Program-made: the position numbers and the translations under genes
IMG/VR virus record: IMGVR_UViG_2671180458_000006
DNA length: 8,718 nt
Origin: a virus
Lineage: Duplodnaviria > Heunggongvirae > Uroviricota > Caudoviricetes
Direction: 5' to 3' (one strand)
Shown: positions 1,772 through 4,405 of the stretch, one piece after another
How the letters are laid out: each line of letters starts with the position of its first letter
Numbering within the stretch: position 1 is the first letter of the stretch
The notes under the pieces: model-generated
The model's input: only the letters and a program-made list of their open reading frames with translations
What the model was told of the DNA's origin: nothing
Database searches by the model: none

Positions 1772-1795
1772 AAGCCGGAGCAATCCGGCTTTTTT
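1772..1795 (+). terminator. Rho-independent terminator after ssb
   Basis: 8-bp stem AAGCCGGA (1772-1779) / TCCGGCTT (1784-1791), 4-nt loop GCAA, then a T run (1790-1795). Confidence 0.6.
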
Positions 1796-1870
1796 ACGGG
1801 TCCTCCTGGCGGGGTGGGCCTGAACACGGGGCGGGTCGGCGCGGAAAAAGGCGCATTTTTTGATTTTTAT
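1796..1870 (+). other. Lambda-type cos-like site, copy 1 (cosQ-like plus cosN-like core)
   Basis: ACGGGTCCT at 1796-1804 matches the lambda right-end/cosQ segment (GGGTCCT). ACGGGGCGG at 1826-1834, 28 bp downstream, matches the lambda cosN junction (ACG|GGGCGGCGACCT) at essentially the lambda spacing. The following A/T-rich GCGC motif segment parallels the start of lambda cosB. The lambda sequence is recalled from memory. Confidence 0.55.
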
Positions 1871-1987
1871 GGCACCATCACCACCACTATAAGCTATTGA
1901 TATGTTGAGAAATAAAAATTTTTAGTGTCGAATCAGGTTGTTTTTTGTTCATCACCGGAACGTTCCCGAAAACATTTACAAAAAACA

Positions 1988-2032
1988 GGCGCAAAAAAAG
2001 CGCCCCCGATTGCTGTTACCGGAGGCGCTTTT
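1988..2032 (+). promoter_or_regulatory. Mutually exclusive hairpins (possible terminator/attenuator)
   Basis: GGCGC (1988-1992) - A7 - GCGCC (2000-2004) can form a short hairpin. Alternatively AAAAGCGCC (1996-2004) pairs perfectly with GGCGCTTTT (2024-2032) over 9 bp across a 19-nt loop, followed by T residues. Function not established. Confidence 0.25.
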
Positions 2033-2125
2033 ACACGACAAAGGAGTTTTTATCGCCAGGATGACGAGTCTTAATACTGCTTCAATGGCAAAAATGCGTC
2101 AATAACTTTGCCTTTCTGAGAATAA

Positions 2126-2165
2126 TCAGAAAAATCATAATCTGATTTTCAGATAGAAAATGATT
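2126..2165. promoter_or_regulatory. Dyad-symmetry elements, operator-like, upstream of the capsid operon
   Basis: AAAATCA (2131-2137) - TAATC - TGATTTT (2143-2149) is a perfect 7-bp inverted repeat, with an adjacent AGATA-N10-TATCT dyad. A CATAAT -10-like hexamer lies at 2136-2141. Located about 60-100 bp upstream of the ORF at 2224. Confidence 0.3.
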
Positions 2166-2223
2166 TATCTATTACTTTTATCGATCAATAATGATGCCCG
2201 TTAACCAAAAAGGAGGCGGATTT

Positions 2224-2418
2224 ATGCCAGAGAACAACACCAGAAAGCCGGATAAAAGTGCCACGGTACACATAGACGCCGGAACTATGGAGAAGATCGA
2301 ACGCTATCAGCAGTTCATCAAAGATAATCACCCGGGTATGCCGGTACCCACGAAAGGACAAATCACACGCAGCGCGGTTGAATACTGGTACAGGGCAACG
2401 TTAGGAGCCTGGCTATGA
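2224..2418 (+). CDS. Small protein (64 aa), possible Nu1/TerS N-terminal winged-HTH-like DNA-binding domain
   Basis: Strong SD AGGAGG (2211-2216) 7 nt before ATG 2224, so the track start at 2191 is probably too early. The stop overlaps the capsid gene ATG (ATGA 2415-2418). The translation (...MEKIERYQQFIKDNHPGMPVPTKGQITRSAVEYWYRA...) loosely parallels lambda gpNu1 residues ~16-50 (IRTIQNWQEQGMPVLRGGGKGNEVLYDSAAVIKWYAER), sharing GMPV and SA-V--WY. The similarity is weak and from memory. Confidence 0.55.
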   Translation: MPENNTRKPDKSATVHIDAGTMEKIERYQQFIKDNHPGMPVPTKGQITRSAVEYWYRATLGAWL

Positions 2419-4304
2419 AAACATGGTTTTCCATTAAGGCTATGGCTGATGTTGTCTATGTGCGCATTTATGACGAGATCGGCGGGTACGGTGTAAAAGC
2501 ATCGGCACTTACTGACGAGATCAACGCGTGCGGTAATGCGTCTGAAATCCATCTTCGCATCCATTCACCTGGTGGCGACATCTTTGAAGGGCTGGCTATC
2601 TATAACGCCCTGAAAAATCATCCGGCAAAGAAAATTGTACACATTGAAGGCATGGCGGCTTCTATGGCCTCGTTTATTGCCATGTGTGGCGATCACATCG
2701 TTATGCCTGAAAACGCGATGATGATGATACATGCCCCCCGTGGTGTTACTGCCGGAGTGTCGGGCGACGTTCGCCGCTTTGCTGACCTGATGGACAAGCT
2801 GGGCGACACGATGGCAGAAACCTACGCCGGAAGAACGGGCAGGAGCAAACAGGAAATCACCGCCATGATGGAGGCGGAAACCTGGATGGATGGCAATGAG
2901 TGTAAGGCTAACGGTTTCGCAGATGAGGTTATACCCGCGATTACAGCAATGGCCCGAATTGAATCAAAACGAATCGGAGATTTTTCAAATATGCCGGAAA
3001 AAATTAAAAGCATGATCAGCCAGAAAGCTACCAGTGGCGAACAGGAACGACTTAACGGCATCCGTGAATTGTTTGGCACGTTCAACGGAAGATATAACGA
3101 CCTGGCTATAAGTTGTCTTGCTGATTCAGAATGTAGCGTTGAGAATGCACGCGAACGCCTTTTACTCGCTATGGGTAAAGAATCAACGCCAACAAACAAA
3201 ACCACCCCCGCAAATCTTTACTACGCGTACACGGATAACGGCAACATAACCGGCGATGCAATGCGCCAGGGGCTTAATGCGCGTCTTGGTCACGAACGGG
3301 CCGAACGCGGTAATCCTTACGCCATGATGAGCCTTTTCGATATGGCACAGGCATCATTAACCCATCGTGGTATAAGCACGGGCAGCTACAGCACACGCTC
3401 GCAGATAGTAAACGCGGCATTCAACCACAGCAGCAGCGATTTTACCGATATCCTTGCTGGTGGTGCTGAAAAATCAGTGCTTGCAGGCTGGGAGCACAGC
3501 GGCGAAACATTCCGTCAGTGGACGAAAAAAGGTTCCCTTTCAAACTTTCGTGAAGCCCGCCGCGTTGGTCTGAATGGTTTCTCTACGTTAAACAAAGTGC
3601 CGGAAGGGGCAGAATATAAATACATCACCACCAGCGATCGCGGTGAACCCATCGCGCTGGCTACTTACGGGAATATTTTCAGCATTACCCGCCAGGCGAT
3701 AATCAATGATGACCTTGATCAGTTATCAACGGTGCCAATGGCTATGGGCCGTGCAGCATCAAGAACGGTGGGAAATCTGGTTAATCTGGTGCTTACAGGC
3801 AACGTAAAACTTTCTGACGGAATAGCGCTGTTTGACAAAAAACACAGCAACCTGATTGAAGCAGGACTGACAACACCGGGACTTAGTGCAGCACGTCACC
3901 TGATGCGCACACAGAAGGACAAAAATGGCGAAGTGCTGAATATTGCGCCTAAATTCCTTTTAGTTCCGGCAGCACTGGAAGATCGCGCGTTGCAGATGAT
4001 TAACTCAACCGCACCTTTCGGGGCTGATAAAAACAGCGGGATCTTTAACCCGTATCACAAGCTACTTGATATCATCGTCGATCCCCGCCTTGATGATATC
4101 AGCGAAAAACAATGGTACATGCTTTCCGCACAGGGAACGGACACAATCGAGGTGGCTTATCTTGATGGCAATGACGAGCCTTACCTTGAACAGCAGGAAG
4201 GTTTTATCGTTGACGGCGTGGCCTGGAAAGTCCGTATTGATGCAGGTGTGGCAGCTCTGGATTATCGCGGTATGGTCAAATCAGGCGGGACAGATTCACT
4301 ATGA
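2415..4304 (+). CDS. Prohead protease (ClpP/S14-like) fused to scaffold-like region and major capsid protein (HK97-fold inferred)
   Basis: 629-aa ORF. The N-terminal ~190 aa carry ClpP-like catalytic motifs: the GMAASMAS serine (Ser83, codon 2661-2663), MMIHAP histidine and a downstream Asp. The C-terminal ~330 aa have the character of a phage major capsid domain, as in protease-MCP fusions seen in prophages. SD AGGAG at 2403-2407. Confidence 0.8.
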   Translation: MKTWFSIKAMADVVYVRIYDEIGGYGVKASALTDEINACGNASEIHLRIHSPGGDIFEGLAIYNALKNHPAKKIVHIEGMAASMASFIAMCGDHIVMPENAMMMIHAPRGVTAGVSGDVRRFADLMDKLGDTMAETYAGRTGRSKQEITAMMEAETWMDGNECKANGFADEVIPAITAMARIESKRIGDFSNMPEKIKSMISQKATSGEQERLNGIRELFGTFNGRYNDLAISCLADSECSVENARERLLLAMGKESTPTNKTTPANLYYAYTDNGNITGDAMRQGLNARLGHERAERGNPYAMMSLFDMAQASLTHRGISTGSYSTRSQIVNAAFNHSSSDFTDILAGGAEKSVLAGWEHSGETFRQWTKKGSLSNFREARRVGLNGFSTLNKVPEGAEYKYITTSDRGEPIALATYGNIFSITRQAIINDDLDQLSTVPMAMGRAASRTVGNLVNLVLTGNVKLSDGIALFDKKHSNLIEAGLTTPGLSAARHLMRTQKDKNGEVLNIAPKFLLVPAALEDRALQMINSTAPFGADKNSGIFNPYHKLLDIIVDPRLDDISEKQWYMLSAQGTDTIEVAYLDGNDEPYLEQQEGFIVDGVAWKVRIDAGVAALDYRGMVKSGGTDSL

Positions 4305-4310
4305 CAACAA

Positions 4311-4332
4311 GGCGGCACCAGCCGCCTTTTTT
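4311..4332 (+). terminator. Rho-independent terminator after the capsid gene
   Basis: GGCGGC (4311-4316) - ACCA - GCCGCC (4321-4326) stem-loop followed by TTTTTT (4327-4332). Confidence 0.65.
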
Positions 4333-4405
4333 GCGGGTCCTCCTGGTGGGGTGGGCCTGAACACGGGGCGGGCGGCGCGGAAAAAAGCGCATTTTTGTGA
4401 TTTTA
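4333..4405 (+). other. Lambda-type cos-like site, copy 2 (direct repeat of 1796-1870)
   Basis: About 92% identical to copy 1 over ~75 bp: GGGTCCT at 4335-4341 and ACGGGGCGG at 4363-4371 with the same 28-bp spacing. It lacks one T in the cosN-like core (GGGCGGG-CGGCG versus GGGCGGGTCGGCG in copy 1). Weaker homology to the copy-1 flank continues for ~170 bp downstream. Confidence 0.55.

What the first reader, a model, noticed from the sequence alone, without database searches (positions are those of the whole stretch)
1772..4405. Capsid cassette bracketed by direct cos-like repeats, reminiscent of a Campbell-type insertion
The two cos-like repeats flank exactly one module: an AT-rich control region, a 64-aa Nu1-like ORF and a protease-major capsid fusion gene with its terminator. 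Direct repeats of a recombinogenic site flanking a self-contained cassette are what homologous (Campbell-type) integration of a circular cos-bearing molecule into a resident cos would produce. Alternatively this is a satellite that carries its own capsid gene and exploits helper terminase and tails, like capsid-forming PICIs. Two directly repeated cos sites only 2.5 kb apart would also affect packaging, since that interval is too short to fill a head.
Basis: inference. Interest (0 to 1): 0.7.

Follow-up and report, generated by a model that had tools for sequence, protein, structure and literature searches.

The report
Phage satellite carrying two cos sites
The two repeats are real packaging (cos) signals inside a known kind of phage satellite that sits within its helper prophage's terminase gene, and each repeat copies the cos region of a different phage group, which offers a testable answer to why such satellites carry two cos sites.

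Summary
Two direct cos-like repeats (window 1772-1883 and 4309-4420) bracket a control region, a 64-aa ORF and a ClpP-protease/major-capsid fusion gene. The repeats do not bracket a foreign insert in a phage. Both lie inside a ~10.4-kb phage-inducible chromosomal island (PICI) of the EcCICFT073 family, integrated site-specifically in terL of a lambdoid prophage, i.e. a helper-embedded PICI. This class, its capsid genes and the presence of two cos sites are all published. What I add: in all six E. coli islands sampled with this cassette, the two copies share a near-identical cosQ-cosN core but carry different downstream flanks. Each flank matches the cos region of a different group of real phages. 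In the window, the left flank matches CP-1639/ASU11/1720a-02 and the right flank matches VT1-Sakai, Stx2 phages and the O157/O121 helper prophage. The cognate TerS proteins differ in their DNA-binding N-termini. Five satellites from other genera carry the cassette with only the right-hand cos. The predicted empty site occurs in none of 5,426 E. coli genomes. Best reading: two packaging signals for two helper lineages (inferred, untested). A Campbell-type or heterodimer origin stays possible. The "Nu1-like" and cf-PICI labels are not supported. Known kind, moderate interest.

The parts
8..805 (+). C-terminal part of the island's primase (the gene starts left of the window)
   Evidence: Pfam Pox_D5 and DUF5906. 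Annotated 'DNA primase family protein' in L001 and L002.
808..1018 (.). Iteron field (GGTGAACAG in direct and inverted copies); probable island replication origin
   Evidence: Repeat families D3, D4, D7 and I1, I2, I4, I5, I9. An ori lies downstream of pri in Gram-negative PICIs (PMC10111431, PMC6092414). Inferred.
1093..1338 (+). 81-aa ORF of the replication zone, function unknown
   Evidence: phrog_1231, E = 3e-50. Conserved upstream of SSB in all E. coli islands sampled.
1335..1757 (+). Single-stranded DNA-binding protein; last gene of the replication zone
   Evidence: Pfam SSB, E = 5e-15.
1770..1796 (+). Terminator-like hairpin plus T-run that closes the replication operon
   Evidence: -15.4 kcal/mol, z = -4.2.
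1790..1860 (+). Left cos core: cosQ-like GGGTCCT at 1798-1804 and cosN-like ACG|GGGCGGGTCGGCG from about 1826. It has one extra T compared with the right copy.
1861..1990 (+). Left-copy downstream flank, on the cosB side ('type A')
   Evidence: About 91% identical to the Rz-terS intergenic cos region of phages CP-1639, 1720a-02 and ASU11.
1996..2032 (.). Hairpin between the cos flank and the capsid control region
   Evidence: -18.1 kcal/mol, z = -2.2. Weak evidence.
2115..2192 (+). Control element of the capsid operon: two TCTGA..TCAGA palindromes (2115-2130, 2140-2154), then a -35-like TTTATC (2164-2169), a 17-nt spacer and a -10-like AATAAT (2187-2192)
   Evidence: Conserved upstream of orf64 in E. 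coli, Kluyvera and Buttiauxella satellites, with palindrome arms changed on both sides. The consensus promoter scan did not call it. Inferred.
2224..2418 (+). 64-aa ORF (orf64), always directly upstream of the satellite-type capsid fusion; function unknown, not Nu1-like
   Evidence: phrog_4934. No Pfam hit. No alignment to TerS. Found only in satellite contexts across 5 genera. Low-confidence two-helix model, pLDDT 65.
2415..4304 (+). 629-aa ClpP-type prohead protease / scaffold-like linker / HK97-type major capsid fusion; the island's capsid component
   Evidence: Pfam CLP_protease and Phage_capsid_4. phrog_133. 51% identical to the helper prophage's own fusion. No phage record carries this version.
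4307..4333 (+). Terminator-like hairpin plus T-run that closes the capsid operon
   Evidence: -15.3 kcal/mol, z = -3.2.
4327..4406 (+). Right cos core: cosQ-like at 4335-4341 and cosN-like ACG|GGGCGGGCGGCG from about 4363. This is the canonical cos position of the family.
   Evidence: 98.8% identical to the O121 helper prophage's own cos core. The only cos present in Kluyvera, Yersinia, Buttiauxella and Moellerella satellites sits at this position.
4407..4561 (+). Right-copy downstream flank, on the cosB side ('type B')
   Evidence: Aligns with the helper prophage cos flank up to the start of the next ORF. 78-79% identical to VT1-Sakai and Stx2-phage cos regions upstream of terS.
4562..4684 (+). 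40-aa stump of the family's conserved last gene (93 aa, phrog_1561). A 473-nt deletion relative to L001 removed the rest.
4764..4778 (+). Right attachment site (attR). The core is TTCTGGATG in relatives; here it is TTCTTGGATG, with a 1-nt insertion.
4779..5887 (+). C-terminal (gpA nuclease) fragment of the embedding prophage's terL, split by the island
   Evidence: Pfam GpA_nuclease. Removing the island in L001 restores a 704-aa TerL. An uninterrupted copy exists in L089 at 99.95% identity.
5884..8697 (+). Prophage head genes: gpW-like (5884-6096), lambda-type portal (6096-7604) and the prophage's own ClpP-capsid fusion (7618-8697, truncated)
8698..8718 (.). End of an IS3-family element that truncates the prophage capsid gene
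   Evidence: The same junction is in L089, where an IS3-family transposase follows.

Best explanation
Window 1-4778 is the right half of a ~10.4-kb Gram-negative PICI of the EcCICFT073 family, integrated by its own integrase into the terL gene of a lambdoid prophage (a helper-embedded PICI). The two direct repeats are two complete cos regions of that satellite. The right copy sits at the family's canonical position, after the capsid gene. It is a near copy (cosQ, cosN and downstream flank) of the cos of VT1-Sakai-type phages, the type carried by the helper prophage in O157 and O121 relatives. The left copy sits after SSB and has almost the same cosQ-cosN core, but its downstream flank is that of a second phage group (CP-1639, ASU11, 1720a-02). 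This island has no TerS- or Rpp-like gene, so packaging of its replicated concatemers must start where a helper's own TerS recognises one of these flanks. I propose that the two sites let the island be packaged by two helper lineages with different TerS specificity. The shared core would keep the cut ends compatible. The capsid cassette lies between the sites because cos sites mark module junctions in the satellite's recombining late zone. Shown here: the identity of the element, its insertion in terL, the two flank types and their phage matches, and the TerS divergence. Inferred: that both sites are used, and by different helpers.
For: Element identity. In L001 and L002 the gene order is int, HTH, BRO, Icd-like, DUF4222, primase, SSB, capsid, 93-aa ORF, lying between the two halves of terL. 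The junctions share the core TTCTGGATG, and removing the 10,418 bp restores a 704-aa TerL that is 88.7% identical to VT1-Sakai TerL. An unoccupied terL is found at 99.95% identity in L089. The class is described in PMC10111431, PMC6092414 and PMC10085698.

cos identity. Both copies align to lambda cosQ/cosN. The linear records of phages cdtI and Tritos start at the base that aligns with lambda's nick (plus the coordinates).

Two flank types. The left flank is about 91% identical to CP-1639, 1720a-02 and ASU11, in the Rz-terS intergenic region. The right flank is 78-79% identical to VT1-Sakai and Stx2 phages, and closer to the L001 helper. All 6 E. coli islands with this cassette pair near-identical cores with two different flanks: A/B, C/A and C/D. 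Type C matches phages cdtI, Tritos and HannyBb.

TerS. Types A and B are identical in the C-terminal half and diverge in the N-terminal roughly 60 residues.

No TerS/Rpp gene in the A/B islands.

Precedent. EcCICFT073 has two functional cos sites, and cosB determines which terminase complex uses a site (PMC6092414, PMC6739421).
Against: There is no functional test. In EcCICFT073, deleting cos2 raised transfer, so a second cos can be a cost rather than a benefit (PMC6092414). Five satellites in other genera manage with one cos. In the window the left cosN has an extra T, and in L001 and L002 the left core is more diverged, including the cosQ-like heptamer (AGGTACT). This could be decay, although similar variants occur in real phages and in other satellites. 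L005 and L006 encode nearly identical TerS-like proteins next to different flank types (A and D), so flank type does not map cleanly onto TerS type. In the window's own genome the embedding prophage remnant is type C and defective, matching neither island cos. I could not test whether island flank types co-occur with resident prophage cos types.
Confidence: 0.55

Rival explanations
1. The left copy is a recombination scar with no present function. A second circular PICI, or a cohesive-end-joined heterodimer, recombined with a resident island at the shared cos core. Most of the incoming backbone was then deleted, leaving its control region, orf64, capsid gene and one extra cos.
For: A crossover inside the shared core predicts exactly what is seen: the same core and different flanks. 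Single-cos satellites in other genera have the donor-like order orf64, capsid, terminator, cos. Similarity of the left flank to the phage stops about 40 nt before where terS would start, as expected for a deletion junction. Flank types appear at different positions in different islands: type A is on the left in the window and on the right in L005, and type B is on the right in the window and after SSB in Nissle. The extra cos is costly in EcCICFT073 (PMC6092414). The left core is more diverged in L001 and L002.
Against: No empty site in 5,426 genomes, and no tandem intermediate was seen. All 6 E. coli islands sampled keep both copies with recognisable cosQ/cosN cores and about 100-150 nt of phage-like flank at 88-91% identity. 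That is more conservation than a useless, costly relic should show. Origin and present function are separate questions, so this rival can be true of the origin while the main explanation holds for function.
Confidence: 0.3
2. The island builds its own capsids from the fusion protein, in the manner of capsid-forming PICIs, and the cos pair serves that private packaging pathway.
For: The 629-aa protein combines protease, linker and HK97-type capsid domains in one chain, is intact, and has diverged to 51% identity from the helper's version. It travels with a private small ORF and a conserved control element across five genera.
Against: The island has no TerL, TerS, portal or head-tail connector genes, which are the parts that define cf-PICIs (PMC10085698). 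In the family prototype the capsid gene is dispensable for transfer and the island is packaged in phage-sized heads (PMC6092414). Nothing links the cos duplication to capsid assembly.
Confidence: 0.1
3. The repeats are an assembly or duplication artefact, or a chance match.
For: None beyond their short length.
Against: E = 7e-31 for the pair. The same layout is present in 137 complete genomes, at three or more integration sites.
Confidence: 0.01

Closest known systems
EcCICFT073-family Gram-negative PICIs (Fillol-Salom et al. 2018 and 2019; PMC6092414, PMC6739421)
   Same: Same gene order (int, AlpA-type HTH, primase, ori, capsid gene, cos), same size class, lambdoid cos helpers, and two cos sites per island. 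The authors explicitly left 'why two cos sites?' open.
   Different: The prototype has a separate lambda-E-type capsid gene plus a decoration gene and an Rpp (TerS-like) protein. Its cos sites have lambda-type cosN with a PICI-specific cosB. By my mapping on the Nissle island, the two lambda-type sites flank the TerS-like gene in inverted orientation. I infer these are the published cos1 and cos2, because I could not access the paper's Fig. S5. The island studied here has a ClpP-capsid fusion, no Rpp, and two direct cos sites with phage-type flanks bracketing the capsid gene.
Helper-embedded PICIs (Tommasini, Mageeney and Williams 2023; PMC10111431)
   Same: A PICI integrated, co-oriented, inside a lambda-like late gene of a prophage. 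Gene A (terminase) sites are among their 14 sites. They describe a dynamic late zone with phage-derived genes and a cos-bearing segment shared with the helper.
   Different: They describe one shared cos segment in their model element. As far as I could read, they do not describe a cos pair bracketing the capsid gene or flank types that match different phage groups.
Capsid-forming PICIs (bioRxiv 10.1101/2022.09.08.507074; PMC10085698)
   Same: Satellites that encode capsid proteins and steal helper tails.
   Different: cf-PICIs also encode TerS, TerL, portal, protease and head-tail connectors. This island encodes only the protease-capsid fusion.
cos-type SaPIs (SaPIbov5 with its capsid homologue Ccm; SaPIbov4 with two putative cos sites; PMC5052747, and cited in PMC6092414)
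   Same: A satellite that carries the helper's cos and a capsid-protein homologue. One member has two cos sites.
   Different: Gram-positive, unrelated sequences, and Ccm redirects capsid size. No such role is shown here.
Lambda cos and cosmid biology (cosQ, cosN, cosB; summarised in PMC9026076)
   Same: The core aligns with lambda cosQ and cosN at the same spacing. The downstream flank is in the position of cosB. TerS N-terminal divergence parallels the known specificity of lambda versus phage 21.
   Different: cosN differs from lambda's (GGGCGGGCGGCG rather than GGGCGGCGACCT), and the R sites of these flanks have not been mapped.

Membership tests
Gram-negative PICI (EcCICFT073 family) | Integrase plus an AlpA-type regulator at the left end, with genes running in one direction | tested here: met
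   These lie outside the window. They are present in the 97%-identical island of L001 and in L002 (int, HTH, BRO-N, Icd-like).
Gram-negative PICI (EcCICFT073 family) | Primase/replicase followed by an origin of replication | tested here: met
   Primase C-terminus at 8-805. Iteron field at 808-1018. Origin function is inferred.
Gram-negative PICI (EcCICFT073 family) | Small size (10-20 kb) and no tail or lysis genes | tested here: met
   10,418 bp from core to core. The island's annotated genes include none.
Gram-negative PICI (EcCICFT073 family) | Late zone with a capsid gene and a cos site resembling the helper's | tested here: met
Gram-negative PICI (EcCICFT073 family) | Induction, excision, replication and high-frequency transfer by a helper phage | not testable with these tools
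   Needs induction and transduction experiments. The window's copy may be impaired by a deletion in its last ORF and a 1-nt insertion in attR.
Rpp-dependent packaging (EcCICFT073 type) | An island-encoded Rpp or TerS-like protein next to a cos with a PICI-specific cosB | tested here: not met
   No TerS/Rpp-like coding sequence in the window's island part, in L001 or in L004 (best tblastn E about 0.6). Both flanks match phage cos regions.
Helper-embedded PICI | Integrated inside a prophage late gene, co-oriented, with an att identity block, such that excision restores the gene | tested here: met
   terL is split at TTCTGGATG and a 704-aa ORF is restored in silico. An uninterrupted terL exists in L089.
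Helper-embedded PICI | The integrase belongs to the HE-PICI integrase clade | not tested
   No integrase phylogeny was made. The integrase lies outside the window.
Capsid-forming PICI | The island encodes TerL, TerS, portal, protease, capsid and head-tail adaptor/connector | tested here: not met
   Only the protease-capsid fusion is present. The terL fragment, gpW-like gene and portal in the window belong to the prophage.
Product of a Campbell-type insertion at cos | Direct repeats of the recombined site flank the inserted DNA | tested here: met
   The pattern of same core and different flanks is compatible with a crossover in the core.
Product of a Campbell-type insertion at cos | Existence of the unoccupied arrangement (one cos, no cassette) or of the free or tandem donor | tested here: not met
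   The synthetic empty junction is covered at 80% or more in 0 of 5,426 genomes. No phage record carries the cassette. Single-cos relatives still carry the cassette.
Lambda-type cos site | cosQ-like element, cosN at lambda-like spacing, and a downstream terminase-binding flank | tested here: met
   Alignment to the ends of the lambda record. The flanks match phage cos regions upstream of terS. R sites were not mapped.
Lambda-type cos site | Cleavage by terminase and ability to direct packaging | not testable with these tools
   Needs cosmid-type transfer assays or end mapping of packaged DNA.

The most novel reading that the evidence does not exclude
Lambdoid-helper PICIs that lack Rpp carry sets of cos 'keys'. 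Each key is a phage-derived cosB-side flank grafted onto a common cosQ-cosN core that is kept uniform within the island so that any pair of cut ends can anneal. One satellite can then be packaged by several helper lineages, including Shiga-toxin phages. Recombination at these sites would also be the route by which capsid modules are swapped between satellites. [quoted passage not shown]
Probability: 0.35. Interest if true: 0.55.

Novelty: new member of a known kind. Interest (0 to 1): 0.35.

Why it matters
The element itself is ordinary for its class. Its value is that it turns a published open question into a simple experiment. Each of the two cos sites can be assigned by sequence to a different helper-phage group, so a reciprocal cosmid-transfer test would show whether double cos sites widen a satellite's helper range. 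Both phage groups include Shiga-toxin-converting phages of pathogenic E. coli. The answer therefore bears on which satellites interfere with, or are spread by, Stx phages. The data also point to cos sites as module boundaries where satellites exchange capsid genes and packaging signals.

Tried and rejected
- A fuzzy-regex scan for cos cores timed out. I replaced it with blastn-short and plain regex.
- I first read hits H37-H41 (Nissle 1917 and others) as the empty site. They are not: a different capsid module follows the SSB-proximal cos.
- A synthetic empty-junction search found nothing.
- The 93-aa ORF after the right copy was tested as a possible Rpp. It has no PDB sequence relative and falls in PHROG 1561 of unknown function, so I rejected that idea.
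- orf64 as Nu1-like was rejected. Its single-sequence AlphaFold model is low-confidence (pLDDT 65, two helices), so I ran no fold search.
- Recent capture of the capsid gene from the resident helper was rejected: 51% identity.
- The consensus promoter/terminator scan missed the plus-strand hairpins and the conserved promoter-like element. I folded the hairpins directly instead.
- Rfam found nothing in the window.
- Literature searches for later work on cos1/cos2 returned only the 2018 and 2019 papers.
- I did not test co-occurrence of island cos types with resident prophage cos types, because the search tool cannot be restricted to chosen genomes.

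
Full report
**1. The observation**

The window holds one long direct repeat, 1772-1883 and 4309-4420. With gaps allowed it is 85% identical over 113 nt, with E = 7e-31 in a local comparison. The central ~70-80 nt are nearly identical, differing by two substitutions and one extra T in the left copy. Weaker similarity runs on for about 130 nt to the right.

Each copy follows a strong hairpin with a T-run, at -15.4 and -15.3 kcal/mol. 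Aligned to the two ends of the phage lambda record, both copies match the cosQ region (ACGGGTCCT) and cosN (ACG|GGGCGG) with almost the same spacing. The lambda record breaks exactly inside the aligned core. "cos-like" is therefore justified.

Between the copies lie:
- an AT-rich stretch (GC 0.365 against about 0.50 in the genes);
- a 64-aa ORF (2224-2418);
- a 629-aa protein with CLP_protease and Phage_capsid_4 domains (2415-4304).

The description and coordinates are confirmed.

**2. What surrounds it**

The whole window recurs in complete E. coli genomes of O121 and O157:H7. In those records (L001, L002) the window's left part is the end of an island with this gene order: integrase, HTH regulator, BRO-N protein, Icd-like protein, DUF4222, primase, 81-aa ORF, SSB, capsid fusion, 93-aa ORF.

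This island lies between the N-terminal and C-terminal fragments of the large-terminase gene of a lambdoid prophage. The two junctions share the core TTCTGGATG. Removing the 10,418 bp between them restores a 704-aa TerL that is 88.7% identical to VT1-Sakai TerL.

A genome with the uninterrupted terL exists. Window 4768-8718 is 99.95% identical to L089, a Qin-like prophage remnant with the same IS junction in its capsid gene. Both repeats therefore lie inside the island. The prophage's own cos lies upstream of its terS, about 8.7 kb to the left of the left copy in L001.

**3. What the element is**

The gene order, the size, the iteron field after the primase and the capsid gene plus cos match the Gram-negative phage-inducible chromosomal islands typified by EcCICFT073 (PMC6092414, PMC6739421, PMC10085698). 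Integration inside a prophage late gene, co-oriented with it, is the helper-embedded PICI configuration. That paper reports 491 further cases at 14 sites in lambda-like late genes, including gene A (PMC10111431).

Three features that made the finding look unusual are already in the literature:
- PICIs of Proteobacteria commonly carry a capsid gene.
- EcCICFT073 has two functional cos sites.

**4. Relatives**

I sampled islands at other integration sites:
- cspD/clpS: L004, L006, L007;
- tRNA-Pro/yejO: L005;
- roxA/phoQ: L003 (Nissle 1917) and L008.

The zone after SSB varies. It holds either the ClpP-capsid fusion preceded by orf64, or a separate lambda-E-type capsid gene plus a decoration gene. 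A TerS-like gene may or may not follow. The zone always ends with the 93-aa ORF.

All six E. coli islands with the fusion cassette have the bracketing direct repeat. The layout is present in 137 complete genomes, about 62 of them in the terL context.

A scan of one genome per species found the satellite-type cassette (orf64 plus fusion, 57-62% identical) in Kluyvera (two loci), Yersinia, Buttiauxella and Moellerella. Every other hit was an ordinary prophage head module: TerS, TerL, W, portal, fusion. Those five satellites have no bracketing repeat. They have a single cos-like site downstream of the capsid gene, followed by a TerS-like gene. The right copy is therefore at the family's canonical position, and the left copy, after SSB, is an addition seen in E. 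coli.

**5. The two copies are different cos types**

The sequence just downstream of the core, where cosB lies in lambda, differs between the copies, and each version matches real phages.
- **Left flank (window 1860-1958, type A):** about 91% identical to phages CP-1639, 1720a-02 and ASU11, in the Rz-terS intergenic region.
- **Right flank (4400-4530, type B):** 78-79% identical to VT1-Sakai and several Stx2 phages at the same place. It aligns with the O121 helper prophage's cos flank up to the start of the next ORF.

A joint alignment separates the two types cleanly.

In L005 the pair is type C on the left and type A on the right. In L006 it is type C and a fourth type, D. Type C matches phages cdtI, Tritos and HannyBb at 88-89%. 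In the cdtI and Tritos records the match starts 29 nt from the record's first base, which puts the record's end at the base that aligns with lambda's nick (with the coordinates).

So in six of six islands the two copies share a near-identical core and carry two different flanks.

The small terminases agree with this. Types A and B are identical over the C-terminal ~100 residues and about half identical over the first ~60, which form the DNA-binding domain. Type C differs throughout. The A/B islands encode no TerS- or Rpp-like protein.

**6. How it most likely works**

After induction, the island excises (restoring terL), replicates from its own origin, and its concatemers are cut and packaged by a helper's terminase. 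That much follows from the published biology of the family.

With no Rpp, initiation must depend on a helper TerS recognising a flank directly. I infer that the right site serves VT1-Sakai-type helpers, such as the one the island is embedded in within O157 and O121, and that the left site serves CP-1639-type helpers.

Termination needs only cosQ and cosN and a full head, so a shared core would keep ends cut at either site cohesive with each other. This may explain why cores look uniform within islands: they are identical in L005 and nearly so in the window, L004 and L006. The 2.5-kb spacing is not an obstacle in itself. PICI concatemers packaged into phage-sized heads already require terminase to pass several cos sites (PMC6092414).

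Confidence is about 0.9 for the identity of the element and about 0.5 for dual-helper use.

**7. Against this, and the rivals**

- In EcCICFT073, deleting cos2 increased transfer (PMC6092414), so a second cos can be a burden.
- One cos suffices in other genera.
- The left core has an extra T in the window and is more diverged in L001 and L002. Comparable variants do occur in real phages and in other satellites.
- L005 and L006 have nearly identical TerS-like proteins next to different flanks.
- In the window's own genome the embedding prophage remnant has a type-C cos and lacks most of its structural genes. Any mobilisation there would need another phage.

The main rival is that the left copy is a scar. 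A crossover in the shared core between a resident island and a second circular or end-joined island, followed by deletion, would give exactly the pattern of same core and different flanks. It is compatible with the data as an origin, but I found no empty site (0 of 5,426 genomes), no cassette in any phage record and no tandem intermediate.

The cf-PICI-like reading fails its membership test, because the island has no TerL, portal or connector genes.

**8. The smaller claims**

orf64 is not Nu1-like. It gives no alignment to TerS, has no Pfam family, and falls in PHROG 4934 of unknown function. A low-confidence model shows two helices. It is, however, a constant partner of the satellite-type fusion across genera.

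Upstream of orf64 lies a conserved element: two palindromes whose arms change on both sides in relatives, then a promoter-like -35/17-nt/-10 arrangement. The "control region" is therefore real, although the consensus scan did not call it.

The island's capsid protein is only 51% identical to the helper's, so it is an old satellite lineage and not a recent copy. Its function is unknown. In the prototype, the capsid gene has no phenotype (PMC6092414).

**9. Verdict**

The feature belongs to a known kind of element, and its main oddities (own capsid gene, two cos sites, residence inside a terminase gene) are already published. The new point is modest and rests on six E. coli islands and a handful of phages: the two cos sites are near copies of the cos regions of two different phage groups. 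It gives a direct experimental handle on an open question, but it does not change the classification. Interest 0.35; new member of a known kind.

Noticed in passing
L003 11661 (+), 14125 (+), 15008 (-); also L007 11695 (+) and 12585 (-); L008 12540 (+) and 13423 (-): The Nissle 1917 island appears to be the EcCICFT073 type, judging by gene content and the roxA/phoQ location. It has three cos-like sites: a phage type-B site after SSB, and two lambda-type sites in inverted orientation flanking the TerS-like gene. The published cos1 and cos2 (lambda-like cosN) probably correspond to the inverted pair, so the SSB-proximal site may be undescribed.
   Followed up: partly
window 4562-4684 and 4615-4643 (L001 22615-23087): The family's conserved last gene (93 aa, PHROG 1561, unknown function) is cut to a 40-aa stump in the window by a 473-nt deletion relative to L001.
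   Followed up: yes
window 4764-4778: The attR core has a 1-nt insertion (TTCTTGGATG, against TTCTGGATG in L001 attL/attR and in the unoccupied site of L089). This could hinder excision or leave a frameshift in terL. Together with the deletion above, it suggests this copy of the island is decaying.
   Followed up: partly
window 7618-8718; L089 8370-11986: The embedding prophage's own ClpP-capsid fusion is truncated at 8697 by an IS3-family element, which in L089 is itself interrupted by IS30. In L089 the next phage genes are tail-fibre genes, and the neighbourhood (pinQ, tfaQ, ydfJ) is Qin-like. The 'helper' in this genome is therefore a defective remnant.
   Followed up: partly
L089 3846-4075: The remnant prophage's own cos is type C (cdtI/Tritos-like). 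It matches neither of the island's cos types, whereas the O157/O121 helper has type B. Integration-site choice and packaging specificity are uncoupled.
   Followed up: partly
window 808-1018: A dense field of GGTGAACAG(T) iterons in direct and inverted orientation lies just after the primase gene. It is the probable island replication origin.
   Followed up: no
window 2115-2192; alignment A5: Two TCTGA..TCAGA palindromes lie upstream of orf64. Relatives have TCTAT..ATAGA at the same place, with both arms changed, which looks like an operator for a dimeric regulator, possibly orf64 itself. A conserved -35/-10-like element follows.
   Followed up: partly
L005 14184-14300 compared with L086 2440-2640: L005's right copy joins a type-C-like core to a type-A flank, a combination not seen in the phages sampled. 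Cores look homogenised within islands, or recombination occurs between core and flank.
   Followed up: partly
window 1790-1860 compared with L001 19790-19860: The window and L001 are about 97% identical overall and have identical left flanks, yet their left cores differ at about 10 positions. The window's left core is much closer to its own right copy, which suggests gene conversion between the two copies in the window's lineage.
   Followed up: no
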